A DNA stretch of 64,000 nt, from UHGV virus genome UHGV-0091736; one strand, 5' to 3'. Position 1 is the first letter of the stretch. Every line of letters begins with the position of its first letter. Source of the stretch: a virus. Shown here one piece after another: positions 37,221 to 44,121 of the stretch. Both the position numbers and the translations under genes were made by a program. Below the pieces are notes generated by a model. That model had not been told where the DNA came from. It ran no database searches and saw only the letters and a program-made list of their open reading frames with translations.

Positions 37221-37250
37221 CACATAGCCCTCCGAAGAAGGCTATAGGCG
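37221..37250 (-). repeat. Conserved hairpin element CACATAGCCCT ... GGCTAT (copy 1)
   Basis: Near-identical element recurs at 42040-42070. Confidence 0.4.
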
Positions 37251-37259
37251 TTACTACAA

Positions 37260-37475
37260 CTAAAAGTCACTTGATTCTACAAAAGCATCACTAAGGATTT
37301 CGTCAATTTCTTTGTTAGTCAAATCTTTCCTGAACCAACAACAAGGTACATCCACCCATTGACCAGAGTTGTTTTCTACAGAGCATCTATTGCCTGTCTT
37401 ACTCTTGCATTTATAGGTTTTACCTTTGTCTAGACGGTAGTGTATCCTGTAAACGACCGACACAAGTGTTATCAT
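37260..37475 (-). CDS. Hypothetical Cys-rich protein
   Basis: ORF only. Confidence 0.35.
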   Translation of the reverse strand: MITLVSVVYRIHYRLDKGKTYKCKSKTGNRCSVENNSGQWVDVPCCWFRKDLTNKEIDEILSDAFVESSDF

Positions 37476-37708
37476 TACTCGCCTTTCTTAGCACGATCTT
37501 TGGCAGTTTTGCCAGTGCGGATGCGATGAGAAACGTTAACCAGAGTGCCACCATCAACTACGGTAACGCTCTTGTTTTTAGCCAGATCAAACACAGTTTT
37601 CTCCGTGCCGCCCAAGCGAATTTGCTTAGGCTCACTGAAGGTTTGGGTTGATTTGGATTGGAACTGGAACGGTTGACGGATTGCATCGATTGCGCTTACT
37701 TTAGACAT
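37475..37708 (-). CDS. Hypothetical protein
   Basis: ORF only. Confidence 0.35.
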   Translation of the reverse strand: MSKVSAIDAIRQPFQFQSKSTQTFSEPKQIRLGGTEKTVFDLAKNKSVTVVDGGTLVNVSHRIRTGKTAKDRAKKGE

Positions 37709-37780
37709 AGGGGAAATTCCTTAAAAAGTCATGGCTGCGTAGAGGGAATTCCCTACGCAAATTGGGCCGCCCACAGGGAG

Positions 37781-37799
37781 GCGTCATAGTACTAAAAGA
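37781..37799 (-). repeat. Conserved intergenic element GCGTCATAGTACTAAAAGA (copy 1)
   Basis: Identical 19-mer recurs at 44103-44121; both downstream of minus-strand genes. Confidence 0.4.
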
Positions 37800-37941
37800 A
37801 GGAGAGAAGAGGGCTTATTTAGCTACCTTTTCTGTCCATTTACAAACCAGATAATCGAACCATCAGGCTGTCGTTGACCTAAGCTTTTCTGGTTAATCAT
37901 ATCGTCATAAGAATATGCTTTACGTCTCATTTGTTTTCCTA

Positions 37942-38154
37942 TTAACAGGCGTAGTTACTTAGGTATACATGCCGATCTCTCAGCACCTCACCAAGAAAAG
38001 ATTTGTAATCTTCTGTTATTCCAGAATAAAACTTCTCTTTAGCTTCTTCTTCAGACACTTTCCACAACTTAGAAAGTTGATTGAACAAGACTTCCTCAGA
38101 GGAGAATAGTAGGTATGCATTCTGGATGAGTATGTCTTTCTCTTCTTGAGTCAT
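37942..38154 (-). CDS. Hypothetical protein
   Basis: ORF only. Confidence 0.35.
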   Translation of the reverse strand: MTQEEKDILIQNAYLLFSSEEVLFNQLSKLWKVSEEEAKEKFYSGITEDYKSFLGEVLRDRHVYLSNYAC

Positions 38155-38161
38155 ATACCAC

Positions 38162-38410
38162 CTACGGAGTTAAGATAATTTCAGCCTTACTAAACTTCTC
38201 ACCAACAACCATATCACCAGAGATGACACGTAGTTCTCCCGTGCCCAAGTTAACAGCTCCAGCAGGTTGGAAACCTCTGCTCTTTGCTGTCAGCATGTAA
38301 GTCTTTTGAAGATGGCACTCTTGGAGAGTGAACACATCTGACATATTTAGGTCTTTAACACGGAGGACTGTTTCCTCTTTGCTCTTAACTTTAACATGAA
38401 TAGTGCTCAT
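38162..38410 (-). CDS. Small protein, member of the tandem paralog family
   Basis: SDVF ... AVNLGTG. Confidence 0.4.
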   Translation of the reverse strand: MSTIHVKVKSKEETVLRVKDLNMSDVFTLQECHLQKTYMLTAKSRGFQPAGAVNLGTGELRVISGDMVVGEKFSKAEIILTP

Positions 38411-38412
38411 AA

Positions 38413-38658
38413 TTACTCCTGAACCACTGACATACGAATTACTTCAACTGGGGTATCACTTTTCATAACACCCAGTACGCCAGTAAGAAGATTAACGGTC
38501 GTAATCCAACCCTCTTCTACAGAGATTTTGTTGGATACATTATTAACACGGATGTGGTACTGAGGAGTTGCTGTTCCTCTCTGAACTACGAAAGGGTTTC
38601 CGGGAATAATTGTAGCCAGTGAAACAGTGTTATCTTTAATCTTTGGGATGATTTTCAT
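38413..38658 (-). CDS. Small protein, member of the tandem paralog family
   Basis: GNPF ... TVNLLTG. Confidence 0.4.
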   Translation of the reverse strand: MKIIPKIKDNTVSLATIIPGNPFVVQRGTATPQYHIRVNNVSNKISVEEGWITTVNLLTGVLGVMKSDTPVEVIRMSVVQE

Positions 38659-38906
38659 TGCGTATTATCCACCAAAAGTTCTGCTGATACAGGAACAACC
38701 TGACAACGACCAAGAGGGGCTGAAACAACCCCATCACCTAGCCGGAGAGTAGGTATCCGGTTATCTGGGATTTTGATGTTAGGACTTAAGGTAACAATTC
38801 CTTTCACATAAAGATCTTCATTGTGTGGGAATTTAAACACAGAACCATTAGCTAGAGAGCTTAGCTCTACTGCTTCTACTTCCTCTTTCTTATATGTGAT
38901 TTTCAT
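38655..38906 (-). CDS. Small protein, member of the tandem paralog family
   Basis: LANGSVF motif. Confidence 0.4.
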   Translation of the reverse strand: MKITYKKEEVEAVELSSLANGSVFKFPHNEDLYVKGIVTLSPNIKIPDNRIPTLRLGDGVVSAPLGRCQVVPVSAELLVDNTQ

Positions 38907-38914
38907 ATTGATTC

Positions 38915-42298: not shown

Positions 42299-42556
42299 TT
42301 ACTTACCTTTATTAGTAATAACAACGTCATGAAGAAGAACAACCTTGCTCTTCGAGCTGAGCTTAATGACTTGTTTGTTTGTTAGACTGAGAACGACACA
42401 ACCACCATCAGAAGGTTTGGTCTCCTCGATCTGCGATTTAAACAGTTGAACAACCATGTAGAAATCTGCTCGTGTTTCCCTGATTTGGAATACATCTCCA
42501 AGTTCAAGATCACCAACACACAAAGATGGTTCGTTTACCTTCAAATCAATCTTCAT
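42299..42556 (-). CDS. Small protein, member of the tandem paralog family
   Basis: LELGDVF motif. Confidence 0.4.
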   Translation of the reverse strand: MKIDLKVNEPSLCVGDLELGDVFQIRETRADFYMVVQLFKSQIEETKPSDGGCVVLSLTNKQVIKLSSKSKVVLLHDVVITNKGK

Positions 42557-42782
42557 CTTTAACCTCTATGTTAGTTATGTGGAGATCACTGCGTACTTGG
42601 CAAACTTCATCACGATCAAAAGGGATAACCTTTCCAGTGACCACATTAACACAATTTACACCATTTTCTGCGTATCGTGTGTCGGTTCTAATGTAAAGAG
42701 TGTCTTTACGCTCAAACAGAACCCCCGGCTTCATGTTATTTAATCGAATCATCGTACGATCAGATTTAATATTAACTTTCAC
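42546..42782 (-). CDS. Small protein, member of the tandem paralog family
   Basis: KPGVLF ... CVNVVTG. Confidence 0.4.
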   Translation of the reverse strand: MKVNIKSDRTMIRLNNMKPGVLFERKDTLYIRTDTRYAENGVNCVNVVTGKVIPFDRDEVCQVRSDLHITNIEVKDED

Positions 42783-42784
42783 TG

Positions 42785-43045
42785 TTAATCCACCTTATCA
42801 GTAAGTCGAGCATTGTTAATCTTCTTAACAATCACACTATGTCGATCTGCTGAGATCACACCGTTTGAGAGGTTCATGTAGTTTCTACAACCATCTGATT
42901 TGTTAAATCTACAGGAAGCCATGTAAAAATCATCAGAGTTCACAAGGAATTGGAACACATCACCTGAATCGAGATCCCCAAGAGTTAGCTTCTTTGGTGG
43001 ATGGTTCATGTCAATTATCACTGTTAATCTCCTGCTGCTTAGCAA
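42785..43045 (-). CDS. Small protein, member of the tandem paralog family
   Basis: LDSGDVF ... MNLSNG. Confidence 0.4.
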   Translation of the reverse strand: MLSSRRLTVIIDMNHPPKKLTLGDLDSGDVFQFLVNSDDFYMASCRFNKSDGCRNYMNLSNGVISADRHSVIVKKINNARLTDKVD

Positions 43046-43307
43046 TAGCTACTCGCAAGTCTTCATTAGCACGAGCAAGGCGCAACACTTCATGATTGAG
43101 ATTCTGAAGACGCTTGTTTCTGTCCTCTACTTGCATAATAAGATCGTTGAGTGTTACTTTAACTTTCTCATTATACATCTCATCCACTCGGACTAGGGAT
43201 TTATACATTCTCTCCCAGCTTGCTGCTTTGTTTCTGAGAACAATAAATCCTATAACGCTGATAGTTAAACAGCTTACAAAAAGGAATTTATATACTTCTA
43301 AAGTCAT
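43011..43307 (-). CDS. N-terminal TM plus coiled-coil protein
   Basis: Hydrophobic helix FLFVSCLTISVIGFIVL then heptad-like region. Confidence 0.4.
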   Translation of the reverse strand: MTLEVYKFLFVSCLTISVIGFIVLRNKAASWERMYKSLVRVDEMYNEKVKVTLNDLIMQVEDRNKRLQNLNHEVLRLARANEDLRVAIAKQQEINSDN

Positions 43308-43507
43308 ATCATTTTACCCTTTATCAGAGATTAAAAGTAATATTATTTAAGTAAGTTATATTTAGTAAACTTATTTTCTAAGAAATTTTCAAAGGGTCTA
43401 TATACAGAGCATTACCCATAGTCCCAGAATACTACCATCTTTTTCAATAAATTTACTAAGTGGTTGGTTTATAAAGGAATTTAGTTTGTCAAATCTGGCA
43501 CTAGTGA

Positions 43508-43897
43508 TTATTCCCTAGAGCTATTATCGAACACTAAATCACCACAATACATAGGATTGGCATACCATTTTGGCACCCCTTCGCTCTTACTCTGAAAGTA
43601 AGTCCCACTGTACAGCGGAACATAATTCTTCTTAAGGGCACGTTTAGCTAGCCTCTCGCTTTCTCCAATGGCTTGCTTAGTCATCGGATTTTTATCACGA
43701 ATCAGCTTTACATAACGTTTATAAGGTTTCTCCTGTTTTAATAGTACCGGAATCCACTCAAACTGGTTCTTTTGTCTTATCACCTGTTCAGCGGTCAGTT
43801 TTCGTTGAGCCATTCTATTTATCACGGTATCCGCAACTAAAGCCTTACATGCGGTTGGCTGATTCCCTGCCTCATAATAAATAGTCAATGTCAACAT
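43508..43897 (-). CDS. Cell-wall hydrolase (SleB-like), endolysin candidate
   Basis: IYYEAGNQP ... ALVADTVINRMA resembles the SleB-family signature. Confidence 0.45.
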   Translation of the reverse strand: MLTLTIYYEAGNQPTACKALVADTVINRMAQRKLTAEQVIRQKNQFEWIPVLLKQEKPYKRYVKLIRDKNPMTKQAIGESERLAKRALKKNYVPLYSGTYFQSKSEGVPKWYANPMYCGDLVFDNSSRE

Positions 43898-43946
43898 TAG
43901 CTGTGCCGTTGTTATCAGAACTTGATACCTCCTGTTTTACGGGCAT

Positions 43947-43975
43947 AAAAAAGCCCCAGCCGTAGCCGGGGTAAA
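43947..43975 (-). terminator. Rho-independent terminator
   Basis: GC-rich hairpin with T-run on the minus strand. Confidence 0.4.
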
Positions 43976-44040
43976 CCTGAAAGCAACACATGACCGTTGC
44001 TATAAATACACTCGTAAATGCACTTATAGCAACGCAAAAA

Positions 44041-44062
44041 GCCGCTCAAAGGCGGCTATGCG
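44041..44062 (-). terminator. Rho-independent terminator
   Basis: Hairpin AGCCGCC/GCGGCT with T-run on the minus strand. Confidence 0.45.
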
Positions 44063-44102
44063 GAAGCTTCAAATGGGAAGAGGGCACGACGCGACAGAAA
44101 GA

Positions 44103-44121
44103 GCGTCATAGTACTAAAAGA
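44103..44121 (-). repeat. Conserved intergenic element GCGTCATAGTACTAAAAGA (copy 2)
   Basis: Identical to the 19-mer at 37781-37799. Confidence 0.4.

What the first reader, a model, noticed from the sequence alone, without database searches (positions are those of the whole stretch)
37221..44121. Two families of conserved intergenic elements downstream of minus-strand genes
The 19-mer GCGTCATAGTACTAAAAGA occurs identically at 37781-37799 and 44103-44121, each just downstream of a gene and followed by hairpins. A hairpin element CACATAGCCCT ... AGGGCTAT occurs at 37221-37250 and 42040-42070. Neither has a T-run directly after the stem, so they may be RNA processing sites or protein-binding sites rather than terminators.
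Basis: seen in the sequence. Interest (0 to 1): 0.4.

Follow-up and report, generated by a model that had tools for sequence, protein, structure and literature searches.

The report
Phage nick-site motif and new RNA fold
The two repeated "intergenic elements" in this phiEco32-like coliphage are real but unrelated: one matches the DNA motif at which distantly related Pseudomonas phages carry site-specific single-strand nicks, and the other is the first hairpin of a previously undescribed, strongly covarying structured RNA found three times in this genome and in several other phage groups.

Summary
The window is a phiEco32-like phage (Kuravirus, about 91% identity). Positions 36-47 kb are early genes on the minus strand. 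Both repeats exist as described and are conserved in relatives.

Family 1 (19-mer, minus strand TCTTTTAGTACTATGACGC). Its invariant core, TACTATGAC+G, equals the experimentally mapped nick consensus 5'-TACT/RTGMC-3' of Pseudomonas phage tf and LUZ24-like phages, which share core genes with this phage. The window and two other genera each carry exactly three such sites, all syntenic. One lies inside a late gene at 1233-1241(+). The relative 7-11 has 12 on one strand (1.2 expected). Most likely these are nickase recognition sites, but no nick has been shown in this clade.

Family 2 (hairpin plus GAGGGCTATGTGAG). This is helix P1 of a roughly 130-nt, five-helix RNA module on the sense strand with an invariant internal loop (CUAGGG / AACAUC). 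15 of 21 modelled pairs show compensatory changes and 99.8% of cells pair. Copies lie at 37125-37255 and 41958-42084, with a truncated third at 39415-39522. The module also occurs in 7-11-like and G7C-like phages and one Flavobacterium MAG contig. Rfam has no match. Its function is unknown; I favour a structured leader of the downstream gene block.

Neither element is a terminator.

The parts
37781..37799 (-). Family 1 copy 1 (F1-1). The 19-mer reads TCTTTTAGTACTATGACGC on the minus strand. Core nick-type motif TACTATGAC at 37783-37791. Predicted nick on the minus strand between 37788 and 37787.
   Evidence: Exact repeat. Core conserved in Kuravirus, Nieuwekanaalvirus and Suseptimavirus while the flanks change. 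Matches TACT/RTGMC of phage tf.
44103..44121 (-). Family 1 copy 2 (F1-2). Same 19-mer, core TACTATGAC at 44105-44113. Predicted nick on the minus strand between 44110 and 44109.
   Evidence: phiEco32 and L055 carry TACTGTGAC here, a change at the degenerate R position of the consensus.
1225..1243 (+). Family 1 copy 3, TCTTCTAGTACTGTGACGG. Core TACTGTGAC at 1233-1241, inside the 1226-aa late ORF 94-3774. Predicted nick on the plus strand between 1236 and 1237.
   Evidence: The same 9-mer plus G lies at the syntenic position in phiEco32, EP335, IME267, Bas88 and PAS59. The base before ACT is kept although the codon changes (agT/gcT/acT).
37792..37814 (-). Pyrimidine-rich tract GCCCTCTTCTCTCCTTCTTTTAG that precedes the F1-1 core. 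Similar CCTTCT-type runs precede all three sites.
37737..37783 (-). Hairpins after F1-1: CGCC-loop-GGCG at 37768-37783 and GCGTAGGGAATTCCCTCTACGC at 37737-37758. The RBS of the gene starting at 37708 follows.
43947..44107 (-). Leader after F1-2: hairpin GACGC-UCUUUCUGUC-GCGUC (44088-44107), intrinsic terminator T1 (44036-44057), 18-bp hairpin (43996-44033), intrinsic terminator T2 (43947-43971). The Hydrolase_2 endolysin-like gene 43508-43897 follows.
   Evidence: The two terminators are also annotated in WFI101126.
37044..37255 (-). Family 2 type A element, filling the intergenic region between the phi32_91 and phi32_90 homologues. The 3' strand of an outer helix plus TTATCCACA lies at 37103-37114. 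AU-rich hairpin at 37086-37103. Intrinsic terminator with U-run at 37044-37068.
   Evidence: CM hit of 138 bits. RNAalifold on 14 A-type sequences gives 57 pairs, 12 with compensatory changes. Fold z-score -3.65. Coordinates. This intergenic region is the only part of the 7.4-kb query that still aligns with phage 7-11 and pSal-SNUABM-01; a few short pieces elsewhere match unrelated phages.
41722..42084 (-). Family 2 type B element, filling the intergenic region between the phi32_113 and phi32_112 homologues. Then hairpins H6 (41908-41931) and H7 (41869-41896), both capped by UAGGGGUA. Long hairpin H8 (41755-41867) carries an insert at 41778-41844 that is 80% identical to the N-gene leader of P22-like phages. 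H9 at 41745-41756, then the RBS.
   Evidence: CM hit of 111 bits. Alignment and alifold of 16 B-type sequences. Fold z-score -3.72. BTP1 match. Coordinates.
39227..39541 (-). P1 39488-39510, P2 39462-39484, P3 39429-39440; the P4/P5 domain is missing. Further hairpins follow, then a terminator-like hairpin at 39286-39305.
   Evidence: CM hit 39415-39522 of 17.6 bits, E 1.4e-4 within the 401-nt stretch searched. Weak syntenic hits in EP335 and IME267. The intergenic region is homologous to that of G7C-like phage PhAPEC5, which holds a full module.

Best explanation
The finding merges two unrelated conserved features of the early region of a phiEco32-like phage.

(1) The 19-mer. This is a DNA signal whose functional core is 5'-TACT/RTGAC-G-3'. 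In Pseudomonas phage tf that motif is where virion DNA carries ligatable single-strand nicks. I infer that a still unidentified phage nicking activity, inherited with the replication and morphogenesis core shared with LUZ24-like phages, recognises the three conserved copies in this genome. It would cut the motif-bearing strand after TACT. The predicted nicks are on the minus strand at 37788|37787 and 44110|44109 and on the plus strand at 1236|1237. The extra identity of the two intergenic copies and the hairpins or terminators after them belong to the conserved leaders the sites sit in. They are not part of the signal. I put this reading at about 60%.

(2) The hairpin. This is helix P1 of a roughly 130-nt structured RNA module transcribed as part of the long sigma70-driven early polycistronic RNA. 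In this clade the module starts at, or up to 9 nt after, the upstream stop codon. It folds into P1, P2, a 3-bp P3 with an RUAU loop, and P4 and P5 flanking an invariant internal loop (CUAGGG[A/C] / [G/A]AACAUC). The structure is shown. The function is inferred. Each copy stays attached to the gene block transcribed after it while the upstream gene varies, and types A and C end in an intrinsic terminator just before the next RBS. I therefore read the module as a structured 5' leader of the downstream block. On this reading the conserved loop is a recognition pocket for a factor, ligand or tertiary contact, and it sets how much transcript continues or survives past that point. I put this specific mechanism at about 35%.
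For: Shown for family 1:
- The repeat is exact and far from chance expectation.
- The invariant part across three genera is TACTRTGAC+G, while the upstream flank changes (TTTTAG / TTTAGC / GGTCAAC / TTTCAAC).
- The variant seen, TACTGTGAC, falls at the R position of the published consensus.
- The tf paper maps 14 nicks at 5'-TACT/RTGMC-3', with TACTATGAC the main predicted site in LUZ24 and PaP3 (PMC3517423). They are annotated in the tf record. A Nanopore study confirms nicks at WACTRTGAC in phage Rembedalsseter and finds the same motif enriched in 60 related Pseudomonas phages (PMC11780129).
- 11 of 14 tf sites and 9 of 9 sites here are followed by G.
- The window, EP335 and IME267 each have exactly three sites, all syntenic, with no lineage-specific extras, although about 2 per genome are expected by chance.
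- The coding copy is kept in six genomes.
- Phage 7-11 has 12 sites on one strand against 1.16 expected (P = 4e-9), and one of them is antisense to the local genes.
- Window ORFs hit the tf genome at DNA polymerase (40% identity), primase-helicase (46%), both exonucleases, the amidoligase / ATP-grasp / glutamine amidotransferase genes, terminase, portal and capsid.

Shown for family 2:
- A MAFFT alignment of 30 sequences gives 21 RNAalifold pairs, 8 with compensatory changes.
- On the CM alignment of 40 distinct sequences, 99.8% of cells pair and 15 of 21 pairs have double changes. 0 of 500 shuffles reach this, and partners slid by 1-3 columns pair in 30-45% of cells.
- About 40 G.U cells are valid only on the minus (sense) strand.
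- P2 forms in all 11 representatives from different sequences.
- The CM finds full modules in 7-11 and pSal-SNUABM-01 (133-139 bits), in a Flavobacterium MAG contig (63 bits; P1 and P4 entirely different in sequence, loops kept) and in G7C-like phages (39-41 bits).
- There are three copies per Gordonclarkvirinae genome and none in tf.
- Folding z-scores are -3.7.
- No Rfam family matches.
- Upstream junctions vary (at least 7 contexts for B and at least 5 for A) while the downstream sequence and gene are constant.
- Terminators end types A and C.
Against: Family 1:
- No physical evidence of nicks exists for any phiEco32-like phage, and none was found in the searchable literature.
- In the window the motif count (1 plus, 2 minus) is at chance level. 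The argument therefore rests on positional conservation and on relatives.
- The three sites are not all on one DNA strand, unlike tf, T5 and phiKMV-like phages. All three are on the locally transcribed sense strand, which an RNA-level signal would also predict.
- The two intergenic copies share more than the 10-mer within Kuravirus (19-25 nt).
- No nickase gene was identified. The tf_46 endonuclease has no hit in the window.

Family 2:
- Nothing shows what the RNA does.
- No RNA ends, ligand or partner are known.
- The downstream genes are small proteins of unknown function and differ between types A, B and C, unlike classical riboswitches.
- Type B has no terminator.
- In the Flavobacterium contig the module is not next to a stop codon.
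- In G7C-like phages the region may be transcribed by a different polymerase, according to what is known of N4 biology. That argues against any mechanism aimed at host RNA polymerase.
Confidence: 0.55

Rival explanations
1. The 19-mer works in RNA, not DNA. It would be a single-stranded box in the early transcript, followed by a small hairpin, that serves as an endonuclease cleavage site, a Rho-loading tract, or a nut/put-like signal. It would act on the terminators immediately downstream.
For: - All three copies lie on the sense strand of local transcription.
- The intergenic copies sit in C/U-rich, G-poor stretches just after stop codons.
- F1-2 is followed within 50-150 nt by two intrinsic terminators.
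- The loop after F1-2 reads CGCUCUUUC. From memory, this matches 8 of 9 bases of the boxA consensus CGCUCUUUA.
- Authors of the 7-11 study state that an unidentified antitermination mechanism is likely in that phage (PMC8948821).
Against: - The boxA-like string is absent from F1-1 (CGCCUCCCUG) and there is no boxB-like hairpin.
- The conserved unit across genera is the 10-mer itself, not the flanks.
- One copy lies inside a long translated late gene, where a Rho or nut signal makes little sense.
- In 7-11 the motif is strongly biased to one DNA strand, and one site is antisense to the local genes.
- The identical motif is experimentally a DNA nick site in tf.
Confidence: 0.2
2. The RNA module is a self-cleaving ribozyme or a ligand-binding aptamer. 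This would make it a new class, with the invariant internal loop as catalytic or binding core. It would cut or switch the polycistronic early RNA at each copy.
For: - A highly conserved unpaired core sits between freely covarying helices.
- The core is the same in phages of Enterobacteria and in a Flavobacterium contig. That favours a function needing no host-specific protein.
- There are several copies per genome, all in sense orientation in intergenic regions.
- Types A and C are followed by terminators, like an expression platform.
- Alternative or pseudoknot pairing occurs between AGUAAC/AACAYC and the P2 loop, with U.G, C-G and U-A variants.
Against: - There is no similarity to any Rfam ribozyme or riboswitch.
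- The downstream genes are unrelated small proteins of unknown function.
- G7C-like copies replace P5 and part of the loop, and the window's type C copy lacks the core entirely. Both would be inactive.
- No cleavage or binding data exist.
Confidence: 0.18
3. The modules are released from the early transcript as stable non-coding RNAs. Release would be by termination at the type A and C terminators and by RNase III at the long type B hairpin. The RNAs would act in trans as decoys or scaffolds for a host or phage RNA-binding protein.
For: - Compact, strongly folded domains of 210-360 nt are bounded by a stop codon and a terminator or a long hairpin.
- Type B carries repeated UAGGG(G) motifs in three hairpin or internal loops, a pattern typical of protein-sponge RNAs.
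- PhAPEC5 has tandem copies.
- The type B long hairpin contains a segment shared with the N leader of P22-like phages, which there also caps a long stem.
Against: - The modules are inherited with the downstream gene, not as free-standing genes with their own conserved promoter. The only promoter-like match, in type A, is not conserved in 7-11 or in type B.
- No partner protein co-occurs in the contexts I inspected; no systematic search for one was made.
Confidence: 0.2
4. Both repeats are neutral leftovers of duplication or recombination. They would be boundary sequences at which early-gene cassettes are exchanged, with no function of their own.
For: - The early region is an array of paralogous small genes.
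- Upstream genes differ between phages exactly at the 5' edge of both element types.
- Type C looks like a deletion derivative of a tandem pair.
Against: - Neutral sequence would not keep 99.8% base-pairing through 15 doubly changed pairs.
- It would not keep an invariant loop between E. coli phages and a Flavobacterium contig.
- It would not keep a 10-mer at three loci in three genera at 72-80% identity, including inside a gene.
Confidence: 0.05

Closest known systems
Localized single-strand interruptions (nicks) of Pseudomonas phage tf and LUZ24-like phages, consensus 5'-TACT/RTGMC-3' (WACTRTGAC in Rembedalsseter)
   Same: - The 9-mer is identical (TACTATGAC / TACTGTGAC) and is followed by the same G.
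- The same variation is tolerated at position 5.
- Site positions are conserved among relatives.
- The phage shares its replication and morphogenesis gene core with tf.
- The relative 7-11 shows the same one-strand over-representation.
   Different: - There are only three sites per genome, so no numerical enrichment.
- The sites lie on both DNA strands, two minus and one plus.
- Two of the three are intergenic and embedded in longer conserved blocks.
- The hosts are Enterobacteria.
- Physical nicks have not been demonstrated here.
Nicks of T5 (R/GCGCRGG) and of phiKMV-like phages (CGACxxxxxCCTA/CTCCGG)
   Same: A few site-specific nicks per genome at a phage-specific motif, with function still unknown. 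T5 has 5 major nicks and the phiKMV-like phage Andromeda has 4 (PMC3517423; abstract listed).
   Different: The motifs are different and the phage lineages unrelated. All nicks are on one strand in those phages.
HK022 put RNAs and lambda nut sites (cis-acting RNA signals in early operons upstream of terminators)
   Same: From memory of those systems: paralogous RNA elements transcribed within early operons, positioned ahead of intrinsic terminators and acting in cis. Here types A and C directly precede terminators, and the B insert is homologous to a segment of the N leader of P22-like phages next to nutL.
   Different: - There is no sequence or structural resemblance. The module has five helices and a 7x7 internal loop, against two stem-loops (put) or boxA plus boxB (nut).
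- Three terminators lie upstream of the first module.
- The module also occurs in N4-like phages, whose middle genes are read by a phage polymerase (from memory).
- No N-like protein was found.
PeSL (promoter-early stem-loop) cassettes of T4-type phages
   Same: From memory: repeated conserved intergenic blocks with a stem-loop that flank small early genes and mark the junctions at which early-gene cassettes are swapped. Here the gene on the 5' side of both element types differs between phages exactly at the element edge.
   Different: PeSLs are a promoter plus a simple hairpin. Here no conserved promoter is present, and the element is a multi-helix RNA with covariation and an invariant loop.
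Orphan structured RNA motifs of phages and metagenomes catalogued in Rfam
   Same: The module was recognised by the same criteria: conserved unpaired core, covarying helices, intergenic position, sense orientation, several phage lineages.
   Different: None of the 4227 Rfam 15 models matches at E up to 10.

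Membership tests
tf / LUZ24-like nick sites (TACT/RTGMC) | Sequence 5'-TACTRTGMC-3' (usually followed by G) | tested here: met
   TACTATGAC-G at 37783-37791(-) and 44105-44113(-), and TACTGTGAC-G at 1233-1241(+). Consensus from PMC3517423 and the tf record.
tf / LUZ24-like nick sites (TACT/RTGMC) | Strong over-representation of the motif, confined to one DNA strand | tested here: not met
   The window has 1 (+) and 2 (-) sites against 0.95 and 0.92 expected. EP335 and IME267 are the same. The feature is met in the relative 7-11 (12 on the minus strand against 1.16 expected, P = 4e-9) and in tf (14 against 0.53).
tf / LUZ24-like nick sites (TACT/RTGMC) | Site positions conserved among related phages | tested here: met
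   All three sites are syntenic in the window, phiEco32, EP335 and IME267. The late-gene site is also present in Bas88 and PAS59. There are no lineage-specific extra sites.
tf / LUZ24-like nick sites (TACT/RTGMC) | Phage belongs to the lineage sharing core genes with LUZ24-like phages | tested here: met
   tblastn of window ORFs against the tf genome gave 22 ORF hits. They include DNA polymerase, primase-helicase, 3'-5' and 5'-3' exonucleases, the amidoligase cassette, terminase, portal and capsid.
tf / LUZ24-like nick sites (TACT/RTGMC) | Physical, ligase-repairable nick after the fourth base in packaged DNA | not testable with these tools
   This needs virion DNA. No report for phiEco32-like phages was found in the library.
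Intrinsic (Rho-independent) terminator | G+C-rich stem-loop directly followed by a U-run | tested here: not met
   P1 hairpins at 37224-37245 and 42043-42070 are followed by GUGAG..., and the 19-mer is unpaired. The scan places terminators elsewhere: 37051-37068, 39286-39305, 41353-41378, 43954-43971, 44040-44057 and 45355-45382.
Any Rfam 15 RNA family | Covariance-model match at the gathering score, or at E up to 10 | tested here: not met
   Only tRNA-Arg reached threshold. Nothing overlaps the type A, B or C elements.
Promoters of phiEco32-like phages (sigma70 early; gp36 tAATGTAtA middle/late) | TTGACA-17-TATAAT, or the single element tAATGTAtA 6-8 nt upstream of the transcription start | tested here: not met
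   The 19-mer has TACTAT but no -35 element or TG extension. No tAATGTAtA is present (consensus from PMC8948821). The real early promoters lie near 47.2-47.9 kb. The only sigma70-like match, inside type A (37184-37213), is not conserved in 7-11 or in type B.
Lambda-type nut site | boxA (CGCUCUU(U)A) followed by a boxB hairpin with a GNRA-like pentaloop, plus an N-type protein | tested here: not met
   A boxA-like CGCUCUUUC occurs only after F1-2, and inside a hairpin loop. F1-1 has CGCCUCCCUG. There is no boxB-like hairpin. No N-like family was found among the 10 flanking proteins scanned.
DnaA box / replication origin | TTATCCACA conserved as a DNA site | tested here: inconclusive
   A perfect box lies at 37103-37111 within the stretch 37103-37114, and it is present in every A-type copy, including the 7-11-like ones. 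Its GGUUAU part is the 3' strand of an RNA helix pairing with UAACCU. G7C-like modules have GGUUAUCUCAG instead.

The most novel reading that the evidence does not exclude
The five-helix module with the invariant CUAGGG / AACAUC internal loop is a new class of self-cleaving ribozyme or ligand- or factor-sensing RNA switch. Unrelated virulent phages (Gordonclarkvirinae, 7-11-like, G7C-like, a Flavobacterium phage) would use it to cut or gate their long early polycistronic transcripts. Independently, the phiEco32 and 7-11 lineage would carry the same site-specific DNA nicking system as LUZ24-like Pseudomonas phages. That would give an E. coli or Salmonella model with only three sites in which to find the nickase and the function of phage genome nicks.
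Probability: 0.15. Interest if true: 0.85.

Novelty: new member of a known kind. Interest (0 to 1): 0.62.

Why it matters
Family 1. Site-specific nicks in phage DNA have been known since T5 and remain unexplained. No nickase is known for the TACT/RTGMC system. If the motif is active here, the system extends from Pseudomonas podophages to well-studied E. coli and Salmonella phages. It would then come in two forms: a minimal three-site version (phiEco32-like) and a 13-site version (7-11). That contrast makes genetics and comparative searches for the enzyme practical. It would also matter for sequencing and engineering these therapeutic-candidate phages, because of Nanopore coverage drops and recombination hot spots.

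Family 2. This is an unannotated structured RNA family. The covariation support is as strong as for many curated Rfam motifs. It is present in about 100 Gordonclarkvirinae records and about 56 Gamaleyavirus records, where it is often mis-annotated as a 'hypothetical protein'. It points to an unstudied layer of RNA-level control in the long early operons, for which an antitermination or processing mechanism has been postulated but not found.

Tried and rejected
- Promoter readings of the 19-mer. TACTAT as a -10 element has no -35 and no TG extension. GCCCTC sits at -35 only in copy 1 and the spacing is not kept. There is no gp36 element.
- Leader-peptide or attenuator reading. The AUG/GUG inside the motif opens 17- and 27-codon ORFs in the window, but phiEco32 and others have a stop after 5 codons.
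- nut/boxA reading. It fits only one copy.
- Base-pairing between the 19-mer and the invariant ACUAAAA of type B. It spans 7 bp and is lost in Suseptimavirus.
- The third, 3-mismatch copy at 1225-1243. I first dismissed it as chance because it is inside an ORF. Whole-genome counts reversed that.
- DnaA-box or origin reading of type A. It was weakened by the RNA helix and by the G7C-like variant.
- A sigma70 promoter inside type A, which would make it an independent sRNA gene. The promoter is not conserved.
- CRISPR-repeat mimicry (I-E / I-F). I saw only short resemblances by eye, judged against repeat sequences recalled from memory, and did not pursue them.
- Pattern scans. GCTAGGGNGAG...CTCNAACATCC gave about a dozen hits in unrelated soil, freshwater and archaeal contigs, at roughly the chance expectation. 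They were not counted as members, except the Flavobacterium contig, which the CM confirmed over its full length. The looser pattern returned 119 stretches, of which 80 were listed. The CM confirmed 3 of the 79 new loci, and a fourth listed stretch (L007) was the NJ01 copy already in hand.
- The scan with TTAGTACTNTGACGC in viral contigs returned mostly chance matches.
- Nickase search. Pfam gave nothing for the small proteins shared with tf.
- The two key phiEco32 papers (PMC2587145, PMC3275717) are not held.
- A broad literature query returned nothing useful.
- The svsR sRNA paper mentions Kuravirus but is unrelated.

Full report
**Context**

The window matches phiEco32-like coliphages (Kuravirus; SU10, KM01, phiEco32) at about 91% identity over 36-45 kb. 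In phiEco32 the region corresponds to genes phi32_88 to phi32_124, all on the minus strand. The published SU10 analysis places the sigma70 early promoters between its CDS120 and CDS121. This corresponds to the repeated TTGACA...CATAAT blocks at about 47.2-47.6 kb of the window. Everything in the finding therefore lies inside one long early transcription unit read from high to low coordinates. Several intrinsic terminator-like hairpins interrupt it. Both repeat families must be read on the minus strand.

**Check of the observation**

- The 19-mer is exact at 37781-37799 and 44103-44121. Shuffles give 0.01 matches even when 3 mismatches are allowed.
- The 11-mer CACATAGCCCT is exact at 37221 and 42040. 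The shared block on the minus strand is GAGGGCUAUGUGAG.
- Neither hairpin is followed by a T-run.
- Both families are present at the same positions in phiEco32, WFI101126, EP335 (Nieuwekanaalvirus), IME267 (Suseptimavirus) and many metagenomic contigs.
- The description is therefore confirmed. One detail differs: in the 37 kb copy the second arm is AAGGCTAT on the plus strand, which gives a G.U pair on the minus strand.

**Family 1, the 19-mer: what is conserved**

On the minus strand it reads UCUUUUAGUACUAUGACGC. Comparison across genera shows what is actually constrained. Upstream of UACU the sequence changes (UUUUAG, UUUAGC, GGUCAAC, UUUCAAC). TACTRTGAC followed by G never changes.

I tested and dropped the following readings:
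- Promoter.
- Leader peptide. The internal AUG opens an ORF that is not conserved.
- boxA.

**Family 1: match to a known nick motif**

The core is identical to the consensus 5'-TACT/RTGMC-3'. At that consensus Glukhov et al. mapped 14 ligatable single-strand nicks in the virion DNA of Pseudomonas phage tf. TACTATGAC is the main predicted site in LUZ24, PaP3 and MR299-2 (PMC3517423; tf record). A 2025 Nanopore study confirmed motif-associated nicks (WACTRTGAC) in phage Rembedalsseter and found the same motif enriched in 60 related Pseudomonas phages (PMC11780129).

Four further results make the match more than a coincidence:
1. The window phage and tf share a gene core: DNA polymerase, primase-helicase, both exonucleases, the amidoligase / ATP-grasp / glutamine amidotransferase genes, terminase, portal and capsid.
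2. The complete genomes of EP335 and IME267, and the 64-kb window, each contain exactly three TACTRTGMC sites at the same three places. These are the two intergenic copies and a plus-strand copy inside the large late gene (window 1233-1241). About two per genome are expected by chance, yet none is lineage-specific.
3. The coding copy is kept in six genomes. The base before ACT stays T although the codon changes (agT, gcT, acT).
4. Salmonella phage 7-11, a more distant relative, has 12 sites on its minus strand against 1.16 expected (P = 4e-9). One of these is antisense to the local genes, so the signal there is tied to a DNA strand rather than to transcripts.

I conclude that the 19-mer is most likely a nickase recognition site. 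The predicted cuts are on the minus strand at 37788|37787 and 44110|44109 and on the plus strand at 1236|1237.

What is shown is the motif identity, its conservation and the relatedness of the phages. The nick itself is inferred.

**Family 1: points against**

- The count in this clade is not enriched.
- The three sites are on two strands, unlike tf.
- No nickase was found.
- All three sites are on the local sense strand, so an RNA-level role cannot be excluded. I give that rival 0.2.
- I found no paper reporting nicks in phiEco32-like phages.

**Family 2, the hairpins: part of longer conserved elements**

The two hairpins open two long intergenic regions, 37025-37259 and 41722-42079. A distant blastn of 7.4 kb gave the first clue. 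The only part still alignable with phage 7-11 and pSal-SNUABM-01 is the non-coding stretch 37036-37255.

Aligning the two window copies with homologues showed a common module:
- AGURAC, which holds a UAA or UGA.
- P1 (AUAGCC...GGCUAU).
- A GU linker.
- P2.
- An A/U-rich linker.
- P3, of 3 bp with an RUAU loop.
- P4 and P5, enclosing an invariant internal loop CUAGGG[A/C] / [G/A]AACAUC.

**Family 2: support for the structure**

- RNAalifold on a plain MAFFT alignment of 30 sequences predicts P1, P3, P4 and P5, with compensatory changes in 8 of 21 pairs.
- A covariance model built from that alignment recovers both window copies (138 and 111 bits) and full-length hits elsewhere.
- One hit lies in a Flavobacterium MAG contig (63 bits). 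There P1 and P4 have entirely different sequences but still pair, and the loops are unchanged.
- Other hits lie in G7C-like N4-like phages (39-41 bits). blastn finds this version in 58 phage records, 57 of them G7C-like, often under a 'hypothetical protein' annotation.
- On the 40 distinct sequences, 99.8% of cells are paired and 15 of 21 pairs have changes on both sides. No shuffle reaches this, and sliding the partners drops pairing to 30-45%.
- About 40 G.U cells would be A.C on the other strand, so the fold belongs to the transcribed strand.
- P2 was misaligned by MAFFT, so I checked it separately. It forms in all 11 representatives from different sequences: GAGU/ACUC, GAGC/GCUC, GAGG/CCUC, GAUAGGA/UCCUAUC and GGUAUACA/UGUAUAUC.
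- No Rfam family matches.

**Family 2: a third copy and the variable 3' parts**

The model also finds a third, truncated copy in the window at 39415-39522, with P1-P3 only. It lies in the intergenic region 39227-39541. The rest of that region, including the terminator-like hairpin 39286-39305, is about 80% identical to the corresponding region of G7C-like phages. EP335 and IME267 have the same three copies, and tf has none.

Beyond the shared module the elements differ:
- **Type A.** It continues with an outer helix (UAACCU/AGGUUA and CUUAA/UUAAG, replaced by CUUUUUA/UAAAGAG in 7-11). An AU-rich hairpin follows, then an intrinsic terminator just before the next RBS.
- **Type B.** It continues with two hairpins capped by UAGGGGUA, both covarying. 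A long hairpin follows, whose tip in most Kuravirus carries a 65-nt insert. That insert is 80% identical to the N-gene leader of P22-like phages, just downstream of nutL, and there too it caps a long stem.

**Family 2: function**

Nothing computational identifies the function, so the following is inference.
- The modules are not terminators, promoters or coding sequences.
- They keep a fixed partner on their 3' side (phi32_90 for A, phi32_112 for B). The gene on the 5' side changes at the very edge of the element, with at least 5 and at least 7 different junctions respectively.
- Types A and C end in a terminator immediately before the next RBS.
- This fits a structured leader of the downstream gene block better than a 3'-UTR product of the upstream gene. 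I take that as the most likely role, at about 35%, with the invariant loop as a recognition pocket.
- The core is the same in a Flavobacterium contig. This keeps a protein-independent activity (ribozyme or aptamer, 0.18) in play.
- A released decoy or scaffold RNA (0.2) also remains possible.
- A put- or nut-like action on host RNA polymerase is less attractive. Three terminators precede the first module, and the module also occurs in N4-like phages.

- The two families are unrelated.
- Family 1 has a third copy, inside a coding region.
- The family 2 hairpins are fragments of a large RNA fold, and that fold has a third copy.
- Both kinds of block travel with the downstream genes, not the upstream ones.

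**Novelty and score**

- The nick motif is a known kind of signal, here inferred in a new clade and host range.
- The RNA module is a new family of a known general kind (conserved structured phage RNA) with unknown function.
- The overall label is therefore 'new member of a known kind'.
- Interest is 0.62. The structural evidence is strong and the nick link makes an old open question more tractable. Both functional claims still need bench work.

Noticed in passing
L213+L214 (Salmonella phage 7-11, HM997019.1), e.g. record positions 88031, 87004, 86020, 85062, 83740, 79967, 75910 on the minus strand: Phage 7-11 carries 13 TACTRTGMC sites, 12 of them on the minus strand (1.16 expected, P = 4e-9). 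Most have the extended form AC-TACTGTGAC-G, and seven cluster in the early region at 75-88 kb. At 83740 the motif's ATG is the annotated start codon of AEK82053.1. Several tf nick sites likewise coincide with annotated gene starts. I found no paper reporting this for 7-11.
   Followed up: partly
window 41778-41844 (minus strand); L088 1501-1567 (Lederbergvirus BTP1): A segment of about 65 nt at the tip of the long type B hairpin is 80% identical to the leader of the N antiterminator gene of P22-like phages, including 22 consecutive identical bases (TCGGCAATGAGTACGCGGTCAG). It lies just downstream of their nutL boxA/boxB. In BTP1 it also caps a long stem (fold z-score -4.1). The segment is absent from Suseptimavirus, NJ01 and some other relatives, so it behaves as a mobile insert. 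It may be an RNase III-type processing hairpin.
   Followed up: partly
window 37103-37111 (plus strand TGTGGATAA): A perfect DnaA box (TTATCCACA on the minus strand) is invariant in every type A element, including the 7-11-like ones. Part of it (GGUUAU) pairs with UAACCU in the RNA fold. G7C-like modules have TTATCTCAG instead, so the box may be incidental or specific to this lineage.
   Followed up: partly
window 39227-39541; L089 (PhAPEC5) 1160-1640: This whole intergenic region is shared at about 80% identity with G7C-like N4-like phages (Gamaleyavirus), which are otherwise unrelated. PhAPEC5 has a full module followed by a partial one in tandem, and the window copy looks like a deletion fusing the two. 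In many Gamaleyavirus records these non-coding stretches are annotated as small hypothetical proteins.
   Followed up: partly
window 43508-43897 (minus strand) and L002 1047-1472 (phage 7-11): The gene just after the F1-2 site and its two terminators is a Hydrolase_2 cell-wall hydrolase (endolysin-like). In 7-11 the homologous endolysin sits directly after the type A RNA element and its terminator. Its ATG at 43897 has no Shine-Dalgarno sequence nearby; the AGGAGG lies about 30 nt upstream.
   Followed up: no
window 37247-37262 and homologous junctions: The module starts with AGUAAC or AGUGAC, so it always holds a UAA or UGA. In several phages this triplet is in frame with one or two earlier stop codons of the upstream ORF (window: UAG UUG UAG UAA). 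AGUAAC (AACAYC in type B) can also pair with the P2 loop. The variants seen (U.G, C-G, U-A) are consistent with a pseudoknot that would include the stop codon.
   Followed up: partly
window 38162-38906, 39542-39763, 40846-41070, 42080-43045 (minus strand): Many of the 70-86-aa early ORFs look like paralogues of one family, with a recurring ...(N/S)GD/SVF... motif. The genes just upstream of module types B and C belong to it. This was judged by eye only.
   Followed up: no
window 41869-41931 and 41965-42000 (minus strand): Type B carries UAGGG(G) four times: in the P4/P5 internal loop, in two hairpin loops capped UAGGGGUA, and in CUAGGGCUAUCCC near 41771-41783. The repeats suggest a repeated binding motif.
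   Followed up: no
L083 2864-3254 (Flavobacterium sp. MAG contig JBOFGJ010000684.1): A full module (63 bits) sits in a 390-nt gap within a run of small same-strand ORFs that looks like a phage early region. The sequence after P4 (CCUGUAAU...GACUAUAUGUAGGUGUAG) resembles the type B continuation. It has no blastn relative in the phage collection.
   Followed up: partly
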